Of a DNA stretch of 64,000 nucleotides, positions 28 to 44,195 are shown one piece after another. Under the pieces are notes generated by a model. That model was not told the origin of the DNA. It saw only the letters and a list, made by a program, of their open reading frames with translations, and did no database searches. Positions within the stretch are counted from its first letter, which is position 1, and each line of letters begins with the position of its first letter. The stretch lies in assembly GCA_000004985.1 (NCBI GenBank), contig GG738866.1, one strand, 5' to 3'. The position numbers were made by a program, and so were the translations under genes. This DNA is from Naegleria gruberi (Eukaryota).

Positions 28-1395
28 GTGTACAATTTACGTTCTGGTGTATTTACAAAGATTCAAAATACTATTACAACTAGTGTTGATGATAGTATGG
101 ACTCTCTAGAAGAAGCTACAACAATTTACGACCATAGCACTTATGATGGATCTCTAATAGCGAATAGACACCATCAGGAACCTGTATCAAAGTCTACCTG
201 GGAAAGTCTGCAGTCTTCAGACCCTAGAACAGATAAATTAGTGATGGGTGTAGATGAACAACCACAAGAAAAGAAGAAGAAGAATAAGAAAAAGGTGATA
301 CAATCACAAACAGAAGAAGAACAAACACCACCAACAACAACAACAATTTCTGAACAAAACCCAAAGTTAATGATGGAAAATAACAAGGCAACAAAAACAA
401 CCACACCTATTCAACCGGAAGGAGGTGTTAAAACAGAAGACATTAAGCCTTTACCATATATCAAACCTTTAAACCATCACGATATCCCACTTCCAACTAG
501 AAAACCAACACCACAAGAAGAAAATGAAATTAATACGGATTTTAAGATTGATCATATTTATGTGATTAATTTGAAAATAAGAGAAGATAGAAGACAAAAA
601 TCTATAAGACGTTTAAACACTTTAGGTGGTATATTTTCGAATTATACATTCTTTGAACCTGTATTTGGTGAAGCATTAACAGACCAAGATATTTTCAATC
701 ATGTATCTATTACAACTTACAAGGCCATTTTGGAAGGAAGAAGTTTGGATTATCAACTTTCCACAAAGGGTGGTGTTGGTTGTTATCTTACACATACCAA
801 CATCTGGAAGGATATGATTGAGAAAGGTTATGAGAGAATTTTAATATTTGAGGACGATTTTGAAATTACCAGTCCTTACGATGAAATTATGACCTATTTT
901 TCACACTTACCAAAGAAATTTGATGTTGCTTTTATGTACTTCAGCTTGTTCCCTGGAAGTGGAGAATTTGAAAGATACAACGATTATTGGATGACAACAA
1001 CAGCCACTAGAGTTTATGGAGCAGCAAGTTACATCATTAATAGGGGTGCTGCAGAAAAATTGTTAGAAAAGGCTTTCCCAATCGATTTGCAATTAGATGC
1101 ATTTATCAATCACTATGTTACATTTACTGGAGGACTCAGATTGTACTCTAGTAAGCTTTTGTTCGGCCACGAGATAACCGAACTCTTCAAGACTAATGTA
1201 CAAGATTATTGTTGGAAATGCATTGCCAATAATTTGATGGATAACTTCCTTTCTGTAGAATTGGTCTTTAACGTATTTCTGATTATGATTGCAGTGGTTG
1301 TAGTTTTAGTGCTGTATGTTAAATTCTTTTCGAAAATTCTTGCTCGTAAACACGGAAAGCAAGATAGACTTGCCGAATGGGCACACGATGAATAA
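28..1395 (+). CDS. Glycosyltransferase family 25-like (LPS/procollagen galactosyltransferase-type) membrane protein. The reading frame is open to the window start and the first ATG is at 97.
   Basis: Low-complexity K/T/P-rich N-terminus. Then HIYVINL..R..R..LGG, GGVGCYLTHTNIWKDMIEKGYERILIFEDDFEI (GT25 motifs) and a C-terminal TM helix LVFNVFLIMIAVVVVLVLYV. The ORF-track start at 28 is GTG and the frame has no stop back to position 1. Confidence 0.55.
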   Translation: MYNLRSGVFTKIQNTITTSVDDSMDSLEEATTIYDHSTYDGSLIANRHHQEPVSKSTWESLQSSDPRTDKLVMGVDEQPQEKKKKNKKKVIQSQTEEEQTPPTTTTISEQNPKLMMENNKATKTTTPIQPEGGVKTEDIKPLPYIKPLNHHDIPLPTRKPTPQEENEINTDFKIDHIYVINLKIREDRRQKSIRRLNTLGGIFSNYTFFEPVFGEALTDQDIFNHVSITTYKAILEGRSLDYQLSTKGGVGCYLTHTNIWKDMIEKGYERILIFEDDFEITSPYDEIMTYFSHLPKKFDVAFMYFSLFPGSGEFERYNDYWMTTTATRVYGAASYIINRGAAEKLLEKAFPIDLQLDAFINHYVTFTGGLRLYSSKLLFGHEITELFKTNVQDYCWKCIANNLMDNFLSVELVFNVFLIMIAVVVVLVLYVKFFSKILARKHGKQDRLAEWAHDE

Positions 1396-3988: not shown

Positions 3989-6199
3989 ATGAGTAAATTG
4001 ACAAGTGTCATGTTGCTTGTGGTGGTGATGTTCGCCATCTTAGCACATTTATGCGCAGCACAAAGTACTTTCAGCACTACAAATGAATGTAAATTCTGTA
4101 AAACTGCTGTTGAAATGGTGGTTAGCAAATATGGTAAGTAAAATAATTCATGATGTCATCATGAGTACTGACACACCATTTGACAGTCAAACCAGCATTT
4201 GCTAAAGCCTTTTGTAGACGTATGGGATTTAAATTCTGTACTAAACTTGAAACCTATCTTGAAGGAGCTAGATCAATTAAACATGCCAAAGATTTGAAGA
4301 GTAATTTGGCATTGACAATTTGTAAGGGTGCTTTAAAGATTTGTTCCAATAAGAACCAAAAGGAAACAACACAACAAGTTGATGAAGTGACATATGTTTT
4401 CCAAATTGTTGATGGTCCAAAGTTTTTCAATTTCACAGAACAATCTGATGCTTTCGACTCAATTAATGGAAATGCCACTTTATTTGGTTATTATTATAAT
4501 AGTTCTGCTCATTCAGTTTTTAATGGAACAATGAATACTACTGGAGATGTTTCATTCAATGGAACTCATAATGTTTTTGTTAATGGAAGTTATATTCATC
4601 AAAATGGATCATTGTTTATTGGAAACAATTTGACAGTTATTAATGGAAGTGTTTCACATAATGGATCTTTCCTCATCACAAATAATACCTATCACCATAA
4701 TGGTAGCACCTTTATGAATGGTAGTATTTCAAATGATTTTATGGGAATTAATGGAACTTTGAATTCTACTGGATATATCTATATTTCTAATTCAACTTTC
4801 TATTCTAATGGTTCAGTAACAAAGAATGGATCAATTTCATATGGAAATGGTACTTTTGAAGGAAATGGAACTCATTCACACTCTGGTGTTATCAGATATC
4901 ACAATGATACCATGTATCACAATGGTTCATTGAATCATAATGGTACAATGAATTATGGTAACGGTACATTCTTCTCCAATGGTTCATTAGCTCACAATGG
5001 TTCAATTCATTACAATAATGGTTCAATTTATCACAATGGTTCATTGAATCATAATGGTACAATGAATTATGGAAATGGTACATTCTTCTCCAATGGTTCA
5101 TTAGCTCATAATGGTTCAATTCATTACAATAATGGTTCTGTTTATCACAATGGTTCATTGAATCATAATGGTACCTTGTATTATGGTAATCAAACCTATT
5201 TCAATGGTTCTACATCTCAAAATGGAAGTGTTTGGTATCACAATGGATACCATTTCTCACAATGGTTCATTGAATCATAATGGTACAATGAATTATGGAA
5301 ACGGTACATTCTTCTCCAATGGTTCATTAGCTCACAATGGTTCAATTCATTACAATAATGGTTCAATTTATCATAATGGTTCATTGAATCATAATGGTAC
5401 AATGAATTATGGAAATGGTACATTCTTCTCCAATGGTTCATTAGCTCACAATGGTTCAATTCATTACAATAATGGTTCTGTTTATCACAATGGTTCATTG
5501 AATCATAATGGTACCTTGTATTATGGTAATCAAACTTATTTCAATGGTTCTACATCTCAAAATGGAAGTGTTTGGTACAACAATGGATCAATTTCTTACA
5601 ATGGTTCATTGAATCATAATGGTACTATTTATTATGGAAATGGATCATTGTCATCCAATGGTTCATTATCTCACAATGGTTCAATTTACTATAATAATGG
5701 AACTATTAACCATAACGGATCAATTGTTTACAACTCTAGTACTGGCTCTGATTCATCTCTTTGTTGGGGACAATCCGTTTGCATTCGTGGTGATTATACC
5801 TCTAGTGGTAAACTCAATTCCAGTTTATTCGATAATGCTGTTGGACTCACTGGTAACATGACTGTAAATGGTGATTTGATTATCAATAGATCTTTCAATG
5901 TTCAAGGTAACTTGTTCGTTAATGGTACCCTTAGATTGCACGGTTATTTGAATGTTGCTGCTGGCAGTTCATTCACTTTGTGGGGTAAGATTGTTGTGAA
6001 TGGAAAGATTGTCGTCAGTGGAAATCTCAGTATTACCAGTTTGAAATCCGGCAGATTTAACATTGATTCTTCCAATACTTTATCAGTCAATAACAGCAAT
6101 GTTTACTTTAAGGGAAAGAGTTTCAGCGTTTTCGTTAATAGAAATGGTGAAGGCACCTATTCTGTTAATAAGGAAGTTTCCACCCATGCAAGAGGATAA
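3989..6199 (+). CDS. Secreted saposin-like plus NxS/T (N-glycosylation-sequon) repeat protein. Exons 3989..4133 and 4187..6199 (53-nt intron). One frame break near 5248 inside the tandem repeats.
   Basis: Signal peptide MSKLTSVMLLVVVMFAILAHLCA. Six-Cys saposin-B-like module CKFCKTAVEMV..VKPAFAKAFCRRMGFKFCTKLE..ICKGALKIC. Then about 40-aa NGS/NGT-rich units HNGSLNHNGTMNYGNGTFFSNGSLAHNGSIHYNNGS. C-terminal beta-rich region GDLIINRSFNVQGNLFVNGTLRLHGYLNVAAG. Confidence 0.6.
4921..5600. repeat. Tandem coding repeat: 120-bp (40-aa) units arranged as two 340-bp higher-order copies starting at 4921 and 5261.
   Basis: The string aatggttcattgaatcataatggtacaatgaattatgg recurs at 4921, 5041, 5261 and 5381. 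The 340-bp period is not a multiple of 3: copy 1 has ggataccatttct where copy 2 has ggatcaatttct, which explains the frame break. Confidence 0.8.
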
Positions 6200-6250: not shown

Positions 6251-8573
6251 TTATCGTCTGTGTGCGTGGAGTATTCCCTCCCCATGAATAGCCAAGTCCT
6301 CTAAAGTATCAGATCCATGAATTTGAGCTCCTTGTTCCGTGGAAAAAATAATTTCATTCTCATTTAAGGAGTGATGTTGACAGTAGGCAGTGAAAAGTTT
6401 TTGTAATGCAGTCGATCGCTTAATTTTAAAATAAACCTCGATATTATTTTCATCCTGTATGTAGATCAAGTAACAGTAATCTAAACTAACTTACAATTAC
6501 AACAATTTGGGCAACACTGTCATCTGGTATATCAGTTGTTGAACTTCTTTTAGATCGCAGTAATCTTCTTGTATCTCTAAAAAATTCTCCATACTCTTCA
6601 GTTACGAATTCAGTAAAAACTGAATAACTATTGTGCTTGATTAAATCAAATGGTGTTACCCCAGCCTTATTTTCTTTTCCAAGGAGAAATGGAACTTTTT
6701 TCAACAGACCTGTAATTGGATAGCTAGATATTTTGTGATTGTACAAAGCTAACTGGATATAATGTAAAAAATTATCTCCAAACTCATTCTCTTCGTATAG
6801 AGAAAGATCCTGATTATCTAATTCCTTGAATATAATATCTATTGTAAATGGACTAGTTTGCGAAATAATGATAACTAGCAGTGGAACATGAACAAATTCG
6901 CTATATATTTCGAAATTTTTAGGCAAACATTGAATCTTTTCATACCACAATTGCATAAACTCATCCTTCTGTGTTTTTAGTAGATAAAGTACTAGTTTTT
7001 CTAAATAGATATAGTTACAACTAGAATAATAGTATTTAACTAAAGATAAACACAAATCTCTGCTAATCTTTCCAATACTGTATAGTACTGTTAAAAAAAC
7101 CTCGTCAGACAATGTACAAAAGAGTAACTCTTCAAGATTTGCTTCAAATCTCCATCCATTAAACATTCCAAAATATATCAATCTTTCCGATTCCTCATTT
7201 AAAAATAATTTTCCATTTTGATAGGTATTTGATAAATAAATTAAATATTGAAATACTTCAGGATTAGAAACTTCCAAGCCATTTAAGGCTAGTCCTGCAA
7301 TGGGTAATTGTATATCAATCACCAAAATATCTAATATTTCTTTCATTAAAAACAAGTCGGATCTATAAGGGCTGTCCATCAATTTCGTAAAATCAAATGA
7401 ATTTGGAATGCAAGACATCATATAGTCAATGAATTTAGAACCAAATTTTTTGCTCATTAACGAAAGATACTTCTTCATCCCATTTCCAGTCGAATTAGGG
7501 AACTTGAAGGTGTTACACTTATACTTCTTCATTAGAATATCCTCTTCTTTTGTATTAGTTATTATTTCAAGTTCGTTGACAGTCTCTAGTAATTGTTCAG
7601 AGTCACCAAATAATGTCACTTTCTCTACTTTCTTACAATGTTTGGTGATAAAGTTAGCAGAAGGATCTAATAATACTAAATGTTTAACAATTGTATTTCC
7701 TTCAAACTCATTGATTGAGTTGTTCTTTTGGAGCACAGGAGATGATCTAAATACTAGTTTAGTATAATTATAATCGAGCAAATTCTTTGATATTGGTATT
7801 GGTGGGGGTGGTGCGTGAAAGAAGAATCCATCATCAAGATAATACCTTTCGTCAACATCTTTAGTATCGCGTTCCAATTTGCCAGAAAAAATTGGAACTC
7901 CATCCTGAAAGAGATGTTTGGGAATTATTTTGGAACTACAATCATCATTTTGATATAAATAGAGCTCATTATCTTGTAATGTGTTGGTTTTGTAGAATTC
8001 TTGTTGCTTTAGTAAATAGAGTATTCTTTTCAAATAATTCTTATCGCCACTCACAAGAACTAATTCTTCCATTGACAAAATTTTGATCATCATTCTCCTG
8101 TTAAACTCTTTTGAAATGACTCTCATTTTGTGATAGTTGACCATTGGAATATCAGTACAATAGCCACCTTCTTCCAAAACTTTGTTGAGCCAAATTGGAC
8201 AAGAATTCAAATCTTTAAATTTTCTTTCCAAACTCTTCCATCTACTCGTAGTAGGAATAAATTCAATAATATCATATCTTATATCGATATTCAACTTTCT
8301 TATTAATTCACAATCAATTTCTAATTGTTGTACATTAATTTGACTTTCAAGCCTTTTTTGATCTTGTTCAATCCAGCCTCTCGCAACATCACCCACAGCA
8401 AAATACAAATTATCACTCACAACATTTCGGAAGGCTTCATAAGAGGTGCTTTTGTATTTTGTTTGCAATTTTTCAAGCATTTTCCGAGACTCTTTATCAA
8501 TTTCTGAGGAAAGCAATCGTTCAATCACAAAAGCCTCTACAGAGAGTTTACCTGGTTCCCCTTGTGTGATCAT
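6251..8573 (-). CDS. Large (about 763-aa) protein of unknown function with a C-terminal SUMO/ubiquitin-like domain. Exons 6495..8573 and 6251..6454 (40-nt intron).
   Basis: The 695-aa ORF ends ...DDSVAQIVVI at a GTAAGT donor. The downstream exon encodes DENNIEVYFKIKRSTALQKLFTAYCQHHSLNENEIIFSTEQGAQIHGSDTLEDLAIHGEGILHAHRR, a SUMO/Rad60-SLD-like fold ending HRR* with no GG. Confidence 0.55.
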
Positions 8574-13218: not shown

Positions 13219-14220
13219 TTGGTCAACCAATATTTTCAAAAACAAATGCAACAAGAAACATTAGTGCAGCTCCAGTTAGATGAAGCATTACAATCCAATT
13301 TACTCTCCACTAAAATCAGAGACATTCCCCACCATCTCAAACATGAAATAATCATTGCTCCGATCATCTCCGCCGAACAATTAAAGGAAACCATTAAATT
13401 TCTCGATACAAGACGTGATTGGTTTACCATTCTCAAATTTATGAACGAACACAATACAGGATATAATCCATTCTACAATGTTTCCATCAGTGCATTGGGA
13501 TTTAAATATTCACTTAGTTGGTGCTATAATTTATTAGAAATTGCCTCCAATTTGGGAAAGGAATTGAAATTTGATACAAATTTTATATTTCAAATAGTTG
13601 GGATAATTCCTGGATTTATTTATAATAATTCGAATGATGTTATTAGAAACGATAGAGAAGTTGTGTTGAGATCTGTTAAGAGATTGGGTTCCATGCTTGG
13701 TGTTGCTTCTGATAGATTGAAAGATGACAGAGAAATAGTAATAACAGCTGTCAAGCAAGATGGTGAAAGTTTACGCTATGCAAATGAAAGATTTAGGAGT
13801 GATAGAGAAATAGTCCTAGCAGCTGTCAAAACTGCTGGTTTGGCATATGTTCATGAATCATTAAGGAATGACAGAGAAATTGTTGAGCTGGCAATTTCAC
13901 ATTGTGGATCATTTCTATCAGGTGCAAGTGAGGAAATGAAAAAAGATAGAGAAATTGTAATGAAAGCCATTTCGACAAGTTCACAAGGATGTGCATTTCA
14001 ATATGTGAGTCGAGAATTAAAGCTCGATAAGAAATTTGTTTTACAAGTTCTCAGAAAAACTGAGGGACAAGCTCTTTGTTATGTGAGTGAAGAATTAATT
14101 AAGGATAAGGAATTTCTTGTTGAAATATTGAAAGTTATTGGGACATCTTTCACGAATACATATGTTATTGGGAGAATTATTAAGGATGATAGAGATTTGA
14201 TATTATTAATTGCTAAATAA
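13219..14220 (+). CDS. DUF4116-type repeat protein (tandem DREIV...L.YA repeats). The repeat series continues in frame for 79 more codons beyond a single TAA at 14218..14220.
   Basis: Repeated units: DREVVLRSVKRLGSMLGVASDRLKDDREIVITAVKQDGESLRYANERFRSDREIVLAAVKTAGLAYVHESLRNDREIVELAI... Downstream in the same frame: DGFIIKYINTELKKDKDIAFEAVSQNVNVFQHIDKSLKDDKEFVLKLAKK..., ending at 14457. Confidence 0.6.
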   Translation: MVNQYFQKQMQQETLVQLQLDEALQSNLLSTKIRDIPHHLKHEIIIAPIISAEQLKETIKFLDTRRDWFTILKFMNEHNTGYNPFYNVSISALGFKYSLSWCYNLLEIASNLGKELKFDTNFIFQIVGIIPGFIYNNSNDVIRNDREVVLRSVKRLGSMLGVASDRLKDDREIVITAVKQDGESLRYANERFRSDREIVLAAVKTAGLAYVHESLRNDREIVELAISHCGSFLSGASEEMKKDREIVMKAISTSSQGCAFQYVSRELKLDKKFVLQVLRKTEGQALCYVSEELIKDKEFLVEILKVIGTSFTNTYVIGRIIKDDRDLILLIAK

Positions 14221-15344: not shown

Positions 15345-16184
15345 TTAACGTTCAACAAATTTGTAATAAGTTTGATTTGGATTACGAATTTTAAACATTT
15401 TCTCTTCATACTCATTATTGCAGAGAACGATTTTGTGTTTTTTCTTATTTACATTTTTTTTGGTTTTTTGTGTTTTTTGAATTTTTACAGAATTGGAAGG
15501 CAAAGTGTTGAAATTATTTGAGGAGGAGGAAGAGGAATATGAGCTGGTGGATGATTCACAATTTACAATATTATTACAATTCGAATAGGCAAATTGACTG
15601 TTAACATTCGAATAGTTTTCAGGAAACGAGTTTTGGAAATAAGCAGAGTTGTGGAAAGTGTTGTTAGCAAAGGTAGCAATTGGTGGTTGGAAGTAATTAG
15701 TTTGAAAGTTGGTCAATTCGAATTGATTAAATATGGAAGGATTCTGGCAGGTGTGAAAAATTACTTGTTGTGGTTGATAAAATTGGTGTTGCATTGAAGG
15801 TGCAGGTTGTGGAGGTGCTTGCATATTGGTACAGAGTTGGTTATTAGAAACTGAACATTGCAGACCTTTAAACAAACTTTCGAATAAAGGGAAAAATTGA
15901 GAAACCAAGTTAAACTGCACAATAGTGGATGACATATCATTCAATGCACAAGAATCGTTCGAAGAGTTACAAGTCTCGGTGCTGATGATTTCAGCCGGCT
16001 GTGTTTCTTGATTTGGAGAAATGTGTTCATCACCATGTTGTGTCATGGTTTCTGATAAATTAGACGAATTATAATTCACAATTTCTGAAAACGAAAGGAA
16101 GGAATTACTAGTCTTTAAACCAGCAGCATTACTTTCATCACAATTATCAATAAATTGTTCAAGGAAGGTGTCAAGTGATTGCAT
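15345..16184 (-). CDS. Hypothetical Q/N/S-rich low-complexity protein.
   Basis: 279-aa ORF with no recognisable domain. It contains a poly-S tract and a basic KKNVNKKKHK segment. Confidence 0.35.
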   Translation of the reverse strand: MQSLDTFLEQFIDNCDESNAAGLKTSNSFLSFSEIVNYNSSNLSETMTQHGDEHISPNQETQPAEIISTETCNSSNDSCALNDMSSTIVQFNLVSQFFPLFESLFKGLQCSVSNNQLCTNMQAPPQPAPSMQHQFYQPQQVIFHTCQNPSIFNQFELTNFQTNYFQPPIATFANNTFHNSAYFQNSFPENYSNVNSQFAYSNCNNIVNCESSTSSYSSSSSSNNFNTLPSNSVKIQKTQKTKKNVNKKKHKIVLCNNEYEEKMFKIRNPNQTYYKFVER

Positions 16185-21053: not shown

Positions 21054-22013
21054 TTATTCCTCATTTTCTTCTTCCTCTTCATTCTCGTCATTCTCTTCAT
21101 CACTGTCATTTGTTATTTTCACTTGTTTCAATAATGCAACAATATTATCGAATTTCTTACTCTCTGCAATTGTTATTGGTTTTTCATTATTGACTTTAGT
21201 ATAACCATATCCATCCCAATAACCTGAGTAGGTGTGCTTTCCCTTATTTACCTTAATTTTTGAATTTTCCAATAATAATTTGACAATTTCCTCATGTCCA
21301 TTCATACAAGCTCCATATAGTGGTGTAATATATCCCAAATTAATTTCAATTTCTTGTTTTGATAGCAATAATTTCACAATATCAACAAATCCATTCAAAC
21401 ATGCAATAAAGAGTGGTGTTACTCCACTGAAACAACTCTCAAACTCTGCATGATCTTCGCCAACCGATTCTTCAAGTCTTCCCTTTGAAATATCAAACTT
21501 TTTACTCTCTGAAAGCAATAGTTCAACAATTTCCAAATCACCCTTTTCACATGCTACAAACAATGGTGTAGTTGTTCCCAAATCAATTTTCACACCCTTT
21601 GAAAGAAGCAATTTCACCATCTCTCCATTGCCCAATTCACATGCCATACACAATGTTGTTCTCTTATCAATCAATCTATTAGTGGAGTAATCTATTTCAT
21701 ACTCTTCTTCATCATCAATACTCTTTTCATTCTCATCTGCAACAAACAACCAATCGAGAAGATATAAATCAGCAGCATCAACCAAAACATTCATCATTTC
21801 AGGATTCTTTTCTGATGCAACAATCTTGCCAAACTTGTCTTGGTTTTCAATGATCCATTCTTTGAATACTCCCTTATCTGCTTTCAACAAATCGGAAGCA
21901 TTGCTATGTGCAATCAAGTAGTCAAAATCTACATCTTCTTCTTGATTGGATGGTTTAGTTTTCTTCCTTGGTGGTGAAAGATTTTCGTCCTTGCTGTGAT
22001 CAGATGAAGACAT
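21054..22013 (-). CDS. Ankyrin-repeat protein with an acidic C-terminal tail.
   Basis: Four or more ANK repeats: TPLFVACEKGDLEIVELLL, TPLFIACLNGFVDIVKLLL, TPLYGACMNGHEEIVKLLL. C-terminal DSDEENDENEEEEENEE. Confidence 0.7.
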   Translation of the reverse strand: MSSSDHSKDENLSPPRKKTKPSNQEEDVDFDYLIAHSNASDLLKADKGVFKEWIIENQDKFGKIVASEKNPEMMNVLVDAADLYLLDWLFVADENEKSIDDEEEYEIDYSTNRLIDKRTTLCMACELGNGEMVKLLLSKGVKIDLGTTTPLFVACEKGDLEIVELLLSESKKFDISKGRLEESVGEDHAEFESCFSGVTPLFIACLNGFVDIVKLLLSKQEIEINLGYITPLYGACMNGHEEIVKLLLENSKIKVNKGKHTYSGYWDGYGYTKVNNEKPITIAESKKFDNIVALLKQVKITNDSDEENDENEEEEENEE

Positions 22014-22363: not shown

Positions 22364-24008
22364 ATGCCATCATCATCAGAGCAGAATAATAACCAACAAG
22401 AATTGGTTGACAATGATCAACAAGAACAAGAACAACACACAGAAAATTCGGAACAAGCTGCTGCTGTTTCTACCAATTCGTCATCGGCAGTGATATCATC
22501 ACCTAATAGCAATGTCGGAAAGACACTTCCTCCTGTGTATGATGACGTTAATGCCAAGCCTAGTGAGTTGCAAAATTTAATTGGATACAAATCGAATGGT
22601 GTTGATGATTCTCTATTGAGAAAATATATTTTAAATCCATATATTTACGAGACTAGTATCAAATTATTTCCAAAGTGGATTGCTCCAAATATGATAACGT
22701 TGACTGGGTTTTCTTTTATTTGCATCAGTTTGATTTTCTCTTATATTTATGCTTGGGGAGGTTTTTCAATGTACTATTGTCAACATGTACATTTTCTTGC
22801 AGAAGTTGGTGGAATGAAATCAGTAATTCCAAATGCTACTTATCATTCAATCACTGATTTTTGTGTTTCCGAACAAACACAATTCTTTTTAGAGAGAAAT
22901 CAAACCTCTCCATTTAATGAATCTTTGAACAGTACAAGCAACTTTTCTCAAAACTTTGTCACAGATACTTTCCTGATGGGTTATCTCCCTCGTTGGGTGT
23001 TTTTCATTAATGCATTGTGCATCTTTTTATATCAAACCTTTGATAATTTGGACGGAAAGCAAGCTAGAAATATGAAACAAAGCTCTCCTCTTGGAGAAAT
23101 GTTTGATCACGGTGTTGATGCCTTAACTTGTACATTGGGTGGTATGGCTTTTTTAGCTACTGCAGCAGCTGGAAATTATGGAGTATGGCAATTATCAGGT
23201 ATGTAATATTCGAGAATTGTGGATTTTAAAACTCAATTTAGACACATTCAGTATCGATGTTAAATGGTTTTATTTCTTACTACTTGTAGTTTCCGGAGAT
23301 TTGCCTTTCATTACTGCTACATGGGAAGAATTTCATATTGGATATTTGTATTTGGGTTTCGTCAATGGACCAATTGAAGGAGTATTGTCAATTGTTTTTT
23401 CACAACTTATTGGATTGTGTTTAGGAGCAGCTGTTTTCCAATGGCAACCATTAGGATTCGTATGGGAAAGTTGTCCACCTTTCCATCTTATTTGTATTGG
23501 AGGATCTGCTGCATTGGCTGTTGTTTCTGCTTTAATGAATATGAAGAAAGTTCTCATGCTCAACAAATCTATCAAACCACTCATTGAACTCTTCCCATTC
23601 ATTTGTTATATTGCATTCATGGTCTTGGCCTTCTTAATCAACACCAAAGCATTGAATACTATTCCTCTTGTTGCAATTCTTGGATATTGTTTCCAATTCG
23701 GATATTTGGCATCAAATGTTACTCTTGCTCACTTACTGAAACGAAAGATTCCAAACATTTTGGATATTAGATATATTATCATCTTCTTCCTTCAATTGTG
23801 TGGTGTTTTTGCTGGAGTTTGGGGATTGGCCTTCTACAGTTTCACAATGGCATTAATTTACTTTAATTTTGCATTGAGTGTTTGTCATTCCATTGCTGGT
23901 TTCTTAAAGATTAATGTGCTTACCATTACACCTCCAAAGGAAGATAAAAAGATTGAATCCAACACCACCAACCAAAATACCACCACTGCAGCTGCAGCTG
24001 TCCAATAA
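22364..24008 (+). CDS. CDP-alcohol phosphotransferase (choline/ethanolamine phosphotransferase-type). Exons 22364..23198 and 23290..24008 (91-nt GTATGT..AG intron).
   Basis: Catalytic motif [28 protein letters not shown] (DG(x2)AR(x8)G(x3)D(x3)D), multiple TM helices, N/Q-rich N-terminus. The ORF-track start at 22340 is TTG; the first ATG is at 22364. Confidence 0.75.
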
Positions 24009-32184: not shown

Positions 32185-34092
32185 TTATTTGTGTATGAGT
32201 GAATCAATAACTGAATAGATGGTACTTCCCATAATAACTAATCCCATCAAGAGTGTTAAGGCAGAACAGATTTTCAAAATTGTAAATCTTCCAGGTTCTA
32301 ACTTTAAAGCGAGTAAACATGGTAAAATATAAGCCATGCTACAAGCACTAACACCTCCTGTGATATTGAAAACAATTCCCAAATCAGTTACTGAAAGGGC
32401 AATAACTAAGGCCAACCCCATAACAAAGAATGTTGCACAATAGTGAATTACAGACTTCTTCAATTGTTTAGCCTTCTTGCTAACACCATTTTCATCGAGG
32501 TCTGGATTATTATTTAGGAGAGCATTGGTTTCTGTGCTAGTCTTCTTTTTTGGCCAGCACCCAATAATTCCATTCTTTGAATTGTACCAATCTTCAAACA
32601 AAACTTCTATAACTAGAATGATACTATTTCTTGGCATGAATGCAGAATATGGAATTGAGAAAACAATAGAAACTGTCAAAAACATTCTTCCTACAATAGC
32701 AGCTGTGACATTCTTTGGGAATAAGTCCAAAACATTGGCTTCTTCCAAATTTCTATCCCAGAAAATCAAATAACCACCAATACCCATAGCTGTACAACAA
32801 ATAACAGTCATAATAACAGTCGCAAATACTACAATGTAATACCTCAGTCTAGTAGCTCTTCTCAACTCTTGGAAAACGTGGAAGCTCATATCGTGACATA
32901 TATAAATGTACGCCAGATTACCAAGAGATGACATAAACTTTGGATGTACAAACTGAAAAGCTTCCTGCCTGTCGTGAGGAATGTATCGTTTAGGTCCAAA
33001 TAAAAGCTCATAATTTACAATAGCTGTGACAGCAAATACAGAAAAAACAGCTGCAAATGAGAAGAATGCAAAACTACCAAGTCTCTTTTGAAGAGCAATT
33101 GGAAGCAAGGCAACTGCCAAATAAATTAAGATAGCTCTTCTACTCAAAAATATACTATCAGAGTCAAATGCATATGCTAAAAGATCAGGAACAACTCTAT
33201 TATGTGTTAATCTATAAAATTAGAGAAATACATACTGTCCAAACATGAGTAATTGAGCACAAGCACCTCCAAAATTGAAGAAAAATATAAAAACACAAGT
33301 CAAAAAGAATCCAATCTTTCCAAAACCTAACATGGCCAACTCTGGTAATGTAGTTTTTAAATGCCTCCTTGATAATTCGTACACTAAACAAAGTGTGAAA
33401 GCAGTCACTACACCAAACAATACAAACCAAATAATTGACATGTAAAGACCACTGGATGCAACTACTTGAGGCATACTGACAGTACCTGGGCTAATAACAT
33501 CATTAATTAAATTCCAAATTGAGAAAAATAATCCTGTCTTTTTCATACTCATTAATTCCTTCCATAATTTGTCTTGTCTCTGTTTTCTCTTCAATTTTCG
33601 AGCTTCCTTTTCCTCATCAGGTAAATTTTCATTTGAAGTATTAATTGAATTTACATTTTCCAAACTATTAGTTGATTTCTTTTTTGGTACAAAATAATCA
33701 TGATTCATGTCATTTACTACAAGAGTAGAACCTTCATCAGTTCTCCTTGTTGTATCTATTGGAACTCGTTGACCAGTTGAATCAAAGAAGACAACTTCTT
33801 CTTCTTGGTCTTCATGATTTTTCTTATTGAATATCTTACTAAACAATGACTTCTTTTTAGATTTTGGTGGATATGATCCTGCTTGAATATCATCATAATT
33901 AGGAGCAGAATAATACATTCCATTTTGTTCTACACTATTACCATGGTGATTACTACTATTATTATTAATTAATATTCCTGCAGATGGTTGATATGAAAAG
34001 GCTTGGTCAAATGTTGGTGAAACAATAATTGATGAGCCTGTAGTAGTTTCGGACGAATCCATCGTATTGAAATGATATTGATGCGGAGCCAT
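32185..34092 (-). CDS. Amino-acid transporter (Aa_trans / AVT-SLC38-like) with a low-complexity N-terminal extension. One very short intron near 33197-33235 (24 or 39 nt).
   Basis: N-terminal exon ...SPGTVSMPQVVASSGLYMSIIWFVLFGVVTAFTLCLVYELSRR...AQLLMFGQ, then a GTATGT donor. C-terminal exon ...AILIYLAVALLPIALQKRLGSFAFFSFAAVFSV...IPYSAFMPRNSII... (11-TM Aa_trans pattern). The first ATG (MAPHQYHF) is at 34090..34092. Confidence 0.6.
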
Positions 34093-42482: not shown

Positions 42483-42555
42483 TGCCGACACCAGGGATCG
42501 AACCAGGGACCTTAAGATCTTCAGTCTTACGCTCTCCCAACTGAGCTATGTCGGC
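42483..42555 (-). tRNA. tRNA-Phe (anticodon GAA), 73 nt, no intron.
   Basis: The minus-strand sequence GCCGACATAGCTCAGTTGGGAGAGCGTAAGACTGAAGATCTTAAGGTCCCTGGTTCGATCCCTGGTGTCGGCA folds into a cloverleaf: 7-bp acceptor stem, D-arm AGCTCAGTTGGGAGAGC, anticodon loop CTGAAGA, T-loop TTCGATC. One U:U mismatch in the T-stem. Confidence 0.85.
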
Positions 42556-42725: not shown

Positions 42726-44195
42726 ATGGTTTTCAATACCTCTTCGACAAACTCTTCTAGCAACAATAACAACACTTCCGAACAAAACAACTCTAATTCC
42801 AATTTTACAAATCCAACTTTTAATGTCAACACTAACGAAAAACAAGAATCACTTTTTAATGCTCTTACTAATTTGAATAACCAATTTCTTAAGCTAAATA
42901 CGAATCCGACGTTGAACTTGCCAATTAATTTTCCAACCGTTTCCTCAACATTGGTCAGTGAAAATCCTTTGAATTCATCAGCTACTGAGAACACTCATGG
43001 GGTTGAATCAATTTCAGTAAACAGATTTCCTAGGTTTAAAGTTACTACATGCAAAGACAATAATGGATTGTCTGGTATTCTATTAAACTATTATTCCATC
43101 ATATCAATGCCAGAGTATAAAGAGAGATCATTTGAGGAATGGAGATGGCTTTACACACTTTCTTCTCAAGGTAAACTCACTTTTGATCCATTCCGTAATC
43201 AAGAAATAGGAAGCAGAAATGGCACCATTAAGAGTGACTCTTTCAAAAGTTGGAAATTCAATGAAACAAATACGAAACCTGCCTTTTCTAGTTTTAGTTT
43301 TTTTAACAATTCCACTCCTCAAATCAATGCAGGAGTTATGACTATTAGTAGTAGCCATTTTCACACTTTTGATATGCAATTCTCTGATTTAGATATTGAT
43401 ATTTATGAAGGTGATAAGCTTTTTGGAAGTATTGATACACATAGAGTGCTAGTTAGCAATCAAAGCAAAGTTCTTTCTAATATGATTACAACTAAATGTA
43501 AAAAGAGAAATGAAAAATATGTATTGGAATTGAATACCTCAATGTTTGGAGATAGACTGGGGAAAATTAGTGGAGCATTGTTATACACTTCTATCAAATC
43601 AATAGTTACAAGCGTAAATGTGCATATTGATGATTTCCTTCAAGTATTTCTAATAGTAGACTATTATCAATCAATAACAATTGGTAGATTGTCCAATACT
43701 ATGACTGCAGCACTAAAATCATCAGAAAGTGTGGCCAGATCTTTCATCAAGAGTTTTGGTACCTCTTATTTCAATATTTCACAATCAGAAAATATTCAAA
43801 CTTTGTTTACACTTTTTAGAGAAGCATTCCGTACTTTGATGGTTGGTACCGAACTCGAAAATGAGCACATATTCAAAATGATGAGTAAAGATATGTTCCT
43901 TGATGGCCTCATTCATTCTGAATGCAAAGAAATCACAACATTATTGAAGGTTATTGACTGCTGGGCTAGTTCAAATTTGAACTTTTCTGCACAAGATTCA
44001 ACTTCCCAAGTTTACACATTTCTAGATGTTATCCCAAATGCTCAACCACTTGTTATGATTGGCATTCTTAGCTCTAGCCCATCGGTTTATAGCTTTATCA
44101 ACAATCTTAGCTCCGATTGGAAATTGAAACTCATCAACAAGTACGTCTTGGTCCTTAATAACAATTCTAGCAAAATTTCACATGATGAAAAATGA
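42726..44195 (+). CDS. BTB/POZ-domain protein with an N-rich low-complexity N-terminus.
   Basis: SDLDIDIYEGDKLFGSIDTHRVLVSNQSKVLSNMI...KYVLELNTSMFGDRLGKISGALLYTSIKSIVTSVNVHIDDFLQVFLIVDYYQ (BTB fold pattern). Poly-N/S N-terminus. Confidence 0.5.
   Translation: MVFNTSSTNSSSNNNNTSEQNNSNSNFTNPTFNVNTNEKQESLFNALTNLNNQFLKLNTNPTLNLPINFPTVSSTLVSENPLNSSATENTHGVESISVNRFPRFKVTTCKDNNGLSGILLNYYSIISMPEYKERSFEEWRWLYTLSSQGKLTFDPFRNQEIGSRNGTIKSDSFKSWKFNETNTKPAFSSFSFFNNSTPQINAGVMTISSSHFHTFDMQFSDLDIDIYEGDKLFGSIDTHRVLVSNQSKVLSNMITTKCKKRNEKYVLELNTSMFGDRLGKISGALLYTSIKSIVTSVNVHIDDFLQVFLIVDYYQSITIGRLSNTMTAALKSSESVARSFIKSFGTSYFNISQSENIQTLFTLFREAFRTLMVGTELENEHIFKMMSKDMFLDGLIHSECKEITTLLKVIDCWASSNLNFSAQDSTSQVYTFLDVIPNAQPLVMIGILSSSPSVYSFINNLSSDWKLKLINKYVLVLNNNSSKISHDEK

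What the first reader, a model, noticed from the sequence alone, without database searches (positions are those of the whole stretch)
3989..6199. Saposin-like domain fused to a hyper-N-glycosylation (NGS/NGT) repeat array with a frame-breaking indel between two 340-bp copies
The 5' exon encodes a signal peptide and a six-Cys saposin-B-like module. The main exon is dominated by about 40-aa units each carrying 5-7 N-x-S/T sequons (over 60 sequons in total), followed by a beta-rich C-terminal region. The array is organised as 120-bp units and two 340-bp higher-order copies. 340 is not divisible by 3, and the copies differ by one extra base (ggatAccatttct versus ggatcaatttct near 5248), which shifts the frame between ORFs 4180..5280 and 5168..6199. 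This is either a collapsed or mis-called repeat or a real, recently disrupted surface-glycoprotein gene. Antisense ORFs across the repeats are artefacts.
Basis: seen in the sequence. Interest (0 to 1): 0.5.

Follow-up and report, generated by a model that had tools for sequence, protein, structure and literature searches.

The report
Unannotated Naegleria beta-helix glycoprotein gene, frame-broken
This is an unannotated Naegleria gruberi gene for a secreted rod-shaped beta-helix protein with a potential N-glycosylation site at almost every corner; one extra base in the reference assembly breaks its reading frame, probably a consensus error or a very recent mutation, and the proposed saposin domain is not supported.

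Summary
The window is Naegleria gruberi NEG-M: nine window ORFs are exact matches to its proteins. At 3989-6199 lies a two-exon gene that is absent from the protein collection. Exon 1 is 3989-4133 and exon 2 is 4187-6199, separated by a 53-nt GTAAGT...CAG intron.

The repeat array and the frame break are real. The basic units are 57 and 114 bp (19 and 38 aa), not 120 bp. The higher-order unit is 339 bp (113 aa), and only copy 2 is 340 bp. Deleting any one base in 5238-5261 gives a 718-aa ORF with 72 N-x-S/T sequons, against 23.6 +/- 4 expected from composition. The sequons are spaced 6-6-7, giving a 19-residue coil.

Saposin is not supported: there is no Pfam or PDB hit, hhalign probability is 0.2% against 95.7% for a control, and the paralog lacks four of the six Cys.

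The four differences inside the repeat copies are all synonymous in their own frames, and the downstream frame is intact. So the break is an assembly artefact (about 55%) or a very recent real mutation (about 35%). Overall this is ordinary, with modest interest.

The parts
3989..4133 (+). Exon 1: ATG, signal peptide (about residues 1-24, MSKLTSVMLLVVVMFAILAHLCAA|QS) and the N-E-C-K-F-C-K-T..EMV motif. It ends in phase 1.
   Evidence: Kyte-Doolittle maximum 2.57 at residues 6-24, the only window above 1.6. This stretch aligns with the N-terminus of N. gruberi D2VYC7 (E 2e-4).
4134..4186 (+). Intron 1, 53 nt: GTAAGT ... TACTGAC ... CAG.
   Evidence: Read directly from the sequence. Splicing keeps the frame. 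Other genes in the window use GTATGT/GTAAGT short introns.
4187..4461 (+). Start of exon 2: a four-Cys, probably helical segment (C58, C66, C94, C101) plus a linker, residues 49-140.
   Evidence: A low-confidence AF2 model shows two long helices. No saposin signal.
4462..4897 (+). Divergent x-N-G-S/T-x-x coils (residues 141-286), not part of the higher-order repeat.
   Evidence: Sequon spacing. AF2 gives 3-5 residue strands separated by 2-3 residue turns.
4898..5236 (+). Higher-order repeat copy 1, 339 nt = 113 aa = six coils (5 x 19 + 18 aa), reading frame 1.
5237..5576 (+). Higher-order repeat copy 2, 340 nt. It is 97.6% identical to copy 1 at offset 340 (8 mismatches). After the extra base the body is read in frame 2.
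   Evidence: The four differences inside the copies are synonymous third-position changes.
5245..5250 (+). Frame-break site GGATAC, with one surplus base. Deleting A5249 gives HNGSISHNGS (like copy 3). Deleting G5245 or G5246 gives HNDTISHNGS (like copy 1).
5577..5734 (+). Partial and degenerate third copy: the last NG[ST] coils.
5735..6196 (+). C-terminal 154-aa region: a Cys pair (C-x5-C), then V-x-G-x-h-x-h beta-helix coils. The weak Bactofilin PF04519 match maps to about 5846-6016. The C-terminus is hydrophilic.
   Evidence: Pfam E 0.003, 18 bits, below the 27.9 cut-off. Remote hits are bactofilin-type repeat proteins. Hydropathy.
6197..6199 (+). Stop codon TAA.
4892..5498 (-). Antisense ORFs 4892..5158 and 5238..5498. 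They are repeat by-products, not genes.
   Evidence: they are repetitive mirror images of the sense repeat (MNHCDK...).

Best explanation
The locus is a lineage-specific Naegleria gruberi gene, absent from the protein collection and so apparently unannotated.

Gene structure:
- Exon 1 (3989-4133) encodes a signal peptide and a C-x-F-C motif.
- Exon 2 (4187-6199) encodes a short Cys-rich helical segment followed by about 28 coils of a right-handed beta-helix.

Inferred protein architecture:
- Each coil is 19 residues built from three x-N-G-S/T-x-x(-x) sides, so nearly every corner of the helix is an N-glycosylation sequon.
- The last coils are bactofilin-like.
- The product would be a secreted, probably heavily N-glycosylated, rigid rod about 13 nm long, with a structural, coat or adhesive role.
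- The array grew by in-frame duplication of a 339-bp block of six coils.

The frame break:
- In the reference sequence the second block has one surplus base at its first corner.
- That junction (AATGGATACC) carries both of the compensating indels that separate the two neighbouring in-frame junction variants (AAT-GATACC and AATGGAT-CA).
- Everything downstream is still under the signature of purifying selection.
- I therefore think the break is most likely a consensus artefact of the 8x Sanger draft. It could come from two in-frame read populations (alleles or misplaced repeat reads) merged by a gap-averse consensus caller. The real gene would then be intact at 718 aa.

Shown: gene structure, repeat anatomy, the +1 base, the organism, the lack of annotation, and beta-helix-type similarity.
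Inferred: secretion, glycosylation, rod function, and artefact rather than mutation.
For: Organism:
- Nine window ORFs are exact N. gruberi proteins.
- The NEG-M genome is a Sanger assembly, and NEG-M is treated as a heterozygous diploid (PMC9928731).

No annotated product:
- Searches with the full-length and C-terminal queries found nothing.
- Exact look-ups of seven candidate products failed, while the neighbour D2VEG8 was found.

Frame break:
- Any single-base deletion in 5238-5261 gives a 718-aa ORF.
- Copy 1 is 339 nt and copy 2 is 340 nt.
- The 4 substitutions inside the copies are all synonymous in frame 1 (copy 1) and frame 2 (copy 2). The synonymous fraction of random changes is 0.21, so P is about 0.002.
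- None of the 67 frame-restoring GT..AG pairs has the GTAAGT/GTATGT donor seen at the three introns read in this window.

Fold:
- Sequons are spaced 6-6-7.
- AF2 pLDDT is about 80 over the repeats, with a break every 19 residues.
- An exhaustive HMMER search gave 36 hits. All ten of those scanned against Pfam showed the Bactofilin family, eight above its gathering score.

Paralog:
- D2VYC7 has the same layout: signal peptide, C-x-F-C motif, NG[ST] coils, and PF04519 at 37.6 bits.
Against: - No reads, transcripts or second strain could be examined, so artefact versus mutation rests on indirect arguments.
- An 8x Sanger consensus is usually accurate to about 1 error per 10 kb.
- The junction's mixed character is also what a true evolutionary intermediate would show at substitution sites.
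- The AF2 models are single-sequence and of moderate or low confidence (pLDDT 63.5 and 54). Foldseek against the PDB gave nothing significant.
- Glycosylation of N-G-S corners is untested, and N-G-S is a relatively weak sequon (my own knowledge).
- The absence of any gene model could instead mean the annotators judged it a pseudogene or low-complexity sequence.
Confidence: 0.55

Rival explanations
1. The extra base is real. It would be a very recent +1 frameshift, fixed or heterozygous in the long-cultured axenic clone NEG-M, that truncates the protein after 412 residues. That removes half of the beta-helix and the C-terminal domain. It could have arisen by slippage or by a short gene-conversion tract between repeat junctions that ended between the two compensating indels.
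For: - The sequence as given has the base.
- The junction is exactly the intermediate state between the copy-3-like and copy-1-like junctions, which a partial conversion tract could create.
- Near-identical tandem copies favour such events.
- No gene model exists in the protein set.
- Sanger consensus errors are rare.
Against: - There is no second lesion anywhere in the 316 downstream codons.
- All differences inside the copies are synonymous, so the event would have to be extremely young.
- A conversion tract would need several switches within 30 nt to give the observed mosaic.
Confidence: 0.35
2. One reading: a saposin-B-like lipid-binding domain fused to a mucin-like hyper-N-glycosylated surface array.
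For: - There are six Cys in three close pairs within about 70 residues after the signal peptide. The first pair is C-x2-C, and the region is predicted helical.
- Naegleria is known to be rich in SAPLIPs (my own knowledge).
Against: - No SapB Pfam hit and no PDB sequence hit.
- hhalign probability is 0.2% against 95.7% for the granulysin control.
- The Cys spacing is off at all four variable gaps.
- Paralog D2VYC7 keeps only the first Cys pair, and that pair is encoded with the signal peptide in exon 1.
- The repeats model as a beta-helix, not as a disordered mucin-like stalk.
Confidence: 0.1
3. Programmed +1 ribosomal frameshifting, or an unusual intron, restores the frame in vivo.
For: The two ORFs overlap by 113 nt, and the downstream frame is conserved.
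Against: - There is no stop codon or known slippery or hungry-codon context at the shift site.
- Identical sequence in copies 1 and 3 is plainly read as coding.
- None of the 67 frame-restoring GT..AG pairs has a canonical donor.
Confidence: 0.02

Closest known systems
Naegleria gruberi D2VYC7 / XP_002670928.1 / NAEGRDRAFT_81705 ('predicted protein', 394 aa)
   Same: Same organism and same layout: signal peptide, N-x-C-x-F-C-x-T..MV motif, x-N-G-S/T-x-x coils, and a bactofilin-like C-terminal beta-helix. Similarity: BLASTP E 4e-22 at about 31% identity, phmmer E 7.5e-6, N-terminus E 2e-4.
   Different: It is half the length and has no 339-bp higher-order repeat. It lacks the four-Cys segment of exon 2. 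Its PF04519 score is above the gathering cut-off (37.6 bits), whereas the target's is below (18 bits). It is uncharacterised, and no paper mentions it.
Bactofilin domain (Pfam PF04519) and bactofilin-type beta-helix repeat proteins of bacteria and phages
   Same: A triangular right-handed beta-helix with 17-19 residue windings and a V-x-G-x-h-x-h motif. All remote sequence relatives of the C-terminus that were scanned carry PF04519. The fold description comes from bioRxiv 10.1101/617639.
   Different: Genuine bactofilins are small cytoplasmic proteins of six windings that polymerise. The target is secretory, has about 28 coils, has sequons at the corners, and scores below the Pfam cut-off. That preprint explicitly sets aside eukaryotic hits outside stramenopiles and ascomycetes, some of them as non-bactofilin repetitive sequences.
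Beta-helical secreted adhesins (EtpA/TpsA, the pertactin and Vag8 autotransporter passengers, Candida glabrata Awp1 A-domain)
   Different: There is no sequence relationship (8-20% identity). The secretion route is different (a eukaryotic signal peptide). Coil length and the corner motif differ. The model itself is single-sequence.
Saposin-like proteins (SAPLIPs: saposins, NK-lysin, amoebapores, naegleriapores)
   Same: Six Cys in a short helical secreted module that begins with C-x2-C.
   Different: No profile similarity. Cys spacings differ. The module is not conserved in the paralog.

Membership tests
Saposin-like (SapB_1 PF05184 / SapB_2 PF03489) | Significant match to the family HMMs | tested here: not met
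   hmmscan of the full protein and of residues 1-140 at E <= 1 gave no SapB hit. phmmer against the PDB at E <= 10 gave no saposin-like chain; the best hit was S100A12 at E 0.07.
Saposin-like (SapB_1 PF05184 / SapB_2 PF03489) | Profile-profile similarity to known SAPLIPs | tested here: not met
   hhalign against a six-member SAPLIP alignment gave probability 0.2% over 9 columns. The granulysin control gave 95.7%, E 9e-9.
Saposin-like (SapB_1 PF05184 / SapB_2 PF03489) | Six Cys with spacing C-x2-C ... C-x9/10-C ... C-x5-C | tested here: inconclusive
   Six Cys are present (34, 37, 58, 66, 94, 101), but the spacing is x2, x20, x7, x27, x6, against x2, x26-27, x9-10, x23-25, x5 in alignment A2.
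Saposin-like (SapB_1 PF05184 / SapB_2 PF03489) | Four- or five-helix bundle fold with C1-C6, C2-C5 and C3-C4 disulfides | not testable with these tools
The exon-2-only model has two long helices at pLDDT below 60.
Bactofilin (PF04519) | Score above the Pfam gathering threshold (27.9 bits) | tested here: not met
   The target scores 17.9-18.4 bits, E 0.003. Paralog D2VYC7 scores 37.6 bits.
Bactofilin (PF04519) | Right-handed triangular beta-helix with about 17-residue windings | tested here: inconclusive
Bactofilin (PF04519) | Small cytoplasmic protein of about six windings that polymerises end to end | tested here: not met
   The target has a signal peptide and about 28 coils in 718 aa. Polymerisation is not testable here.
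N-linked glycoprotein | Entry into the secretory pathway plus N-x-S/T sequons | tested here: met
   An N-terminal hydrophobic signal. There are 72 sequons, 55 of them NG[ST], against 23.6 +/- 4 expected.
N-linked glycoprotein | Glycans actually attached | not testable with these tools
   Needs PNGase F/Endo H treatment or glycoproteomics.
Decayed pseudogene | Multiple disabling lesions and relaxed selection | tested here: not met
   There is a single +1 base. 316 downstream codons remain open, and the differences inside the copies are all synonymous.

The most novel reading that the evidence does not exclude
The gene may encode a previously undescribed eukaryotic design. It would be a secreted beta-helix whose three corners per 19-residue coil are all N-glycosylation sequons, giving a rigid 'bottle-brush' glyco-rod. 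This rod might stack end to end through its bactofilin-like terminal coils into extracellular filaments, for example in a coat or cyst-wall matrix. Its length would be tuned by gain and loss of 339-bp six-coil blocks. On this reading the +1 junction is a real product of partial gene conversion between junction variants that carry compensating indels, that is, a repeat-driven on/off switch.
Probability: 0.12. Interest if true: 0.55.

Novelty: new member of a known kind. Interest (0 to 1): 0.27.

Why it matters
- It flags a probable annotation gap in the N. gruberi reference. A 2.2-kb gene with a clean signal peptide, a clean intron and a conserved frame has no protein model, probably because one base breaks the ORF.
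- It shows that a small Naegleria-specific family (this gene and D2VYC7) couples a bactofilin-like beta-helix to the secretory pathway and places sequons at the helix corners.
- If the protein is made and glycosylated, it would be a useful natural example of how dense N-glycosylation coexists with a beta-solenoid fold.
- Otherwise the finding is ordinary: a repeat protein with a likely consensus error. The saposin fusion that made it look unusual does not hold up.

Tried and rejected
- Homology searches with the full repaired protein and with the C-terminal 154 aa found nothing in the word-indexed collection. The repeat words swamped the 8000-candidate limit.
- A search with the paralog P0007 (D2VYC7) returned only itself.
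- The look-up of encoding contigs failed for four window ORFs and for P0007. That index does not appear to hold this genome.
- Two metagenome scans, with C-terminal and N-terminal queries, found no relative.
- There is no paralog inside the window.
- The AFDB Foldseek library was unavailable. Foldseek against the PDB was insignificant.
- Intron rescue of the frame was rejected.
- Other overlapping ORF pairs in the window were checked as an error-rate proxy. They are explained by canonical introns or by ordinary gene ends, so they give no estimate of the assembly's indel rate.
- A simple single-crossover origin of junction 2 was rejected, because the junction switches between copy-1-like and copy-3-like states several times within 30 nt.
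- Literature searches found nothing on D2VYC7 or on Naegleria bactofilin-like proteins.

Full report
**Observation**

The region was read directly. ORFs 4180..5280 (frame 1) and 5168..6199 (frame 2) exist as stated. Tandem Repeats Finder reports nested periods of 57 and 114 bp (6.9 copies of 114 bp, 80% matches). It also reports a 340-bp period with 2.4 copies, 94% matches and score 1433, over 4897-5700.

Aligning the three higher-order copies shows the following.
- Copy 1 (4898-5236) is 339 nt.
- Copy 2 (5237-5576) is 340 nt.
- Copy 3 is partial.
- The surplus base sits in the first corner of copy 2: AATGGATACCATT, against AAT-GATACCATG in copy 1 and AATGGAT-CAATT in copy 3.

So the native higher-order period is 339 bp (113 codons). 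Copy 2 is 339 + 1, rather than 340 being an intrinsically out-of-frame unit. Removing any one base between 5238 and 5261 yields a single 718-codon ORF.

**Gene model**

- Exon 1 (3989-4133) starts at an ATG preceded by an A-run. It encodes a classical signal peptide and ends at G|GTAAGT.
- The 53-nt intron (4134-4186) has a TACTGAC branch-like motif and a CAG acceptor. Splicing keeps the frame.
- Two other split genes in the window use the same kind of short GTATGT...YAG introns.
- Only the first two Cys (C-x2-C) are in exon 1. The other four lie in exon 2.
- The only hydrophobic segment is the signal peptide. The C-terminus is hydrophilic, so there is no TM or GPI-type signal.

**Organism and annotation**

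GC content is 34%. Nine window ORFs are exact matches to Naegleria gruberi proteins from one 469,335-bp scaffold. Examples are D2VEG8 at 6486-8573(-), immediately 3' of the target, and D2VEH1, D2VEI6 and D2VEJ0. NEG-M is a Sanger assembly, and the strain is treated as a heterozygous diploid (PMC9928731).

The target gene has no product in the collection.
- The full-length and C-terminal queries found nothing.
- Exact look-ups of the truncated spliced product, an internal-Met version and five ORF2 versions all failed.

The gene therefore appears to be unannotated.

**What the protein is**

The repaired product has 72 N-x-S/T sequons (55 are NGS or NGT), against 23.6 +/- 4.0 in residue shuffles. 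Their spacing is a strict 6-6-7 (19 residues) through the regular part, with one 18-residue coil per 113-residue block. Three x-N-G-S/T-x-x(-x) sides per 19 residues is the geometry of a triangular beta-helix.

Structure prediction points the same way.
- A single-sequence AF2 model of 5249-6196 has pLDDT of about 80 over the repeats, with a strand break every 19 residues.
- Foldseek against the PDB was not significant.
- A second model of 4189-4899 is low-confidence (pLDDT 54). It shows two long helices for the Cys segment, then 3-5-residue strands separated by short turns through the divergent repeats.

The C-terminal 154 aa gives a sub-threshold Bactofilin PF04519 match (18 bits, cut-off 27.9). 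An exhaustive HMMER search of 1.84 billion representatives with 5579-6196 gave 36 hits (best E 2e-10). All ten hits scanned against Pfam showed the Bactofilin family, eight of them above its gathering score. By their sequences and sources most of the 36 look bacterial or phage-like.

One hit, P0007, is N. gruberi D2VYC7 / NAEGRDRAFT_81705. It shares the whole layout:
- a signal peptide;
- the motif N-P-C-T-F-C-Q-T-S-F-D-M-V, compared with N-E-C-K-F-C-K-T-A-V-E-M-V in the target;
- NG[ST] coils;
- a PF04519 domain above threshold.

No further relatives were found, and no paper mentions the paralog.

Bactofilins proper are small cytoplasmic beta-helices of six windings. The bactofilin survey that looked at eukaryotes accepted only the stramenopile and ascomycete clusters. 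It set aside the other eukaryotic hits as non-bactofilin repetitive sequences or as isolated hits whose best matches were bacterial (bioRxiv 10.1101/617639). I therefore call the fold bactofilin-like without claiming membership.

**Saposin claim**

- No SapB_1 or SapB_2 hit at E <= 1.
- No saposin-like PDB chain at E <= 10.
- hhalign against a SAPLIP alignment gives probability 0.2%. The same profile recognises granulysin at 95.7%.
- Cys spacings (x2, x20, x7, x27, x6) differ from the canonical ones.
- The paralog retains only the exon-1 Cys pair.

A saposin-like fold is therefore unsupported, though not strictly excluded.

**The frame break**

At offset 340 the two copies differ at 8 of 340 positions. 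The four differences inside the copies (4959, 5034, 5109, 5196) are all third-position synonymous changes when copy 1 is read in frame 1 and copy 2 in frame 2. Only 21% of random substitutions there would be synonymous, so P is about 0.002. The 316 codons downstream of the break are open and keep the repeat motif perfectly. Both copies have therefore been maintained as coding sequence in the frame of the C-terminal domain, so the extra base is either not real or very young.

None of the 67 GT..AG pairs that would restore the frame has the canonical donor. The site has no frameshift-signal features.

The junction of copy 2 carries both members of the compensating indel pair that distinguishes the copy-1 junction from the copy-3 junction. 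Among roughly 70 possible single-base insertions in that window, this is the one expected if two in-frame variants (GATACC and GGATCC) were merged by a gap-averse consensus caller. The variants could be alleles of a heterozygous clone or misplaced reads from the neighbouring junctions. A short gene-conversion tract ending between the two indels could produce the same state in reality, but it would need several switches within 30 nt.

My weights are: artefact about 55%, real recent mutation about 35%, other about 10%.

**Mechanism proposed**

This part is inferred. The protein enters the ER and is N-glycosylated co-translationally at many of the corner sequons. It then folds into a beta-helical rod of about 28 coils. 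At about 4.8 Å per coil (my own knowledge) that is roughly 13 nm. The Cys-rich helical N-terminal segment may act as a cap. The bactofilin-like C-terminal coils may act as an end cap or stacking surface. With no membrane anchor, the protein would be released or retained in an extracellular matrix, coat or cyst wall. Array length changes in steps of six coils (339 bp) by unequal exchange.

**Verdict**

The repeat, indel and glycoprotein reading is supported, and the saposin fusion is not. The locus is a new, unannotated member of a small Naegleria family of secreted beta-helix repeat proteins, with a probable single-base consensus error. Interest is modest.

Noticed in passing
window 6251..6496 (-): An ORF at 6251..6469(-) encodes a Rad60-SLD/SUMO-like domain (Pfam E 7.6e-9). 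It lies directly 3' of the annotated D2VEG8 gene (6486..8573 -). On the minus strand, GTAAGT (6494..6489) is followed at once by the annotated stop TAG (6488..6486). A 40-nt intron ending in CAG at 6455 would join ...AQIVVI in phase to DENNIEVYFKIK.... The 695-aa model therefore probably lacks a C-terminal SUMO-like exon.
   Followed up: partly
window 3989..6199: The target gene has no product in the 15-billion-protein collection, although nine neighbouring ORFs are exact N. gruberi entries. This looks like an annotation gap, probably caused by the frame break.
   Followed up: yes
window 13219..14220 (+) and 58711..60702 (-): Two proteins are built from DUF4116 repeats (Pfam E 5e-76 and 1e-51).
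   Followed up: no
window 42483..42555 (-): A single tRNA-Phe(GAA) gene, the only tRNA or Rfam hit in the 64 kb.
   Followed up: no
window 23199..23289 (+) and about 33190..33232 (-): Short GTATGT...TAG introns split a CDP-alcohol phosphatidyltransferase gene and an Aa_trans amino-acid transporter gene. They give this window's donor consensus (GTAAGT/GTATGT) and its intron sizes (about 40-90 nt).
   Followed up: partly
proteins P0038, P0043, P0044, P0046 (clusters of window ORFs 42726..44195, 15345..16184, 21054..22013): ENA metagenome contigs of 1.5-1.9 kb encode proteins at least 90% identical to N. gruberi proteins of this window. Close relatives of this amoeba are therefore present in public environmental assemblies and could supply an independent copy of the target gene.
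   Followed up: no
window 28..1395 (+): A glycosyltransferase family 25 ORF (Pfam E 6e-22) lies 2.6 kb upstream of the sequon-rich gene. No functional link was tested.
   Followed up: no
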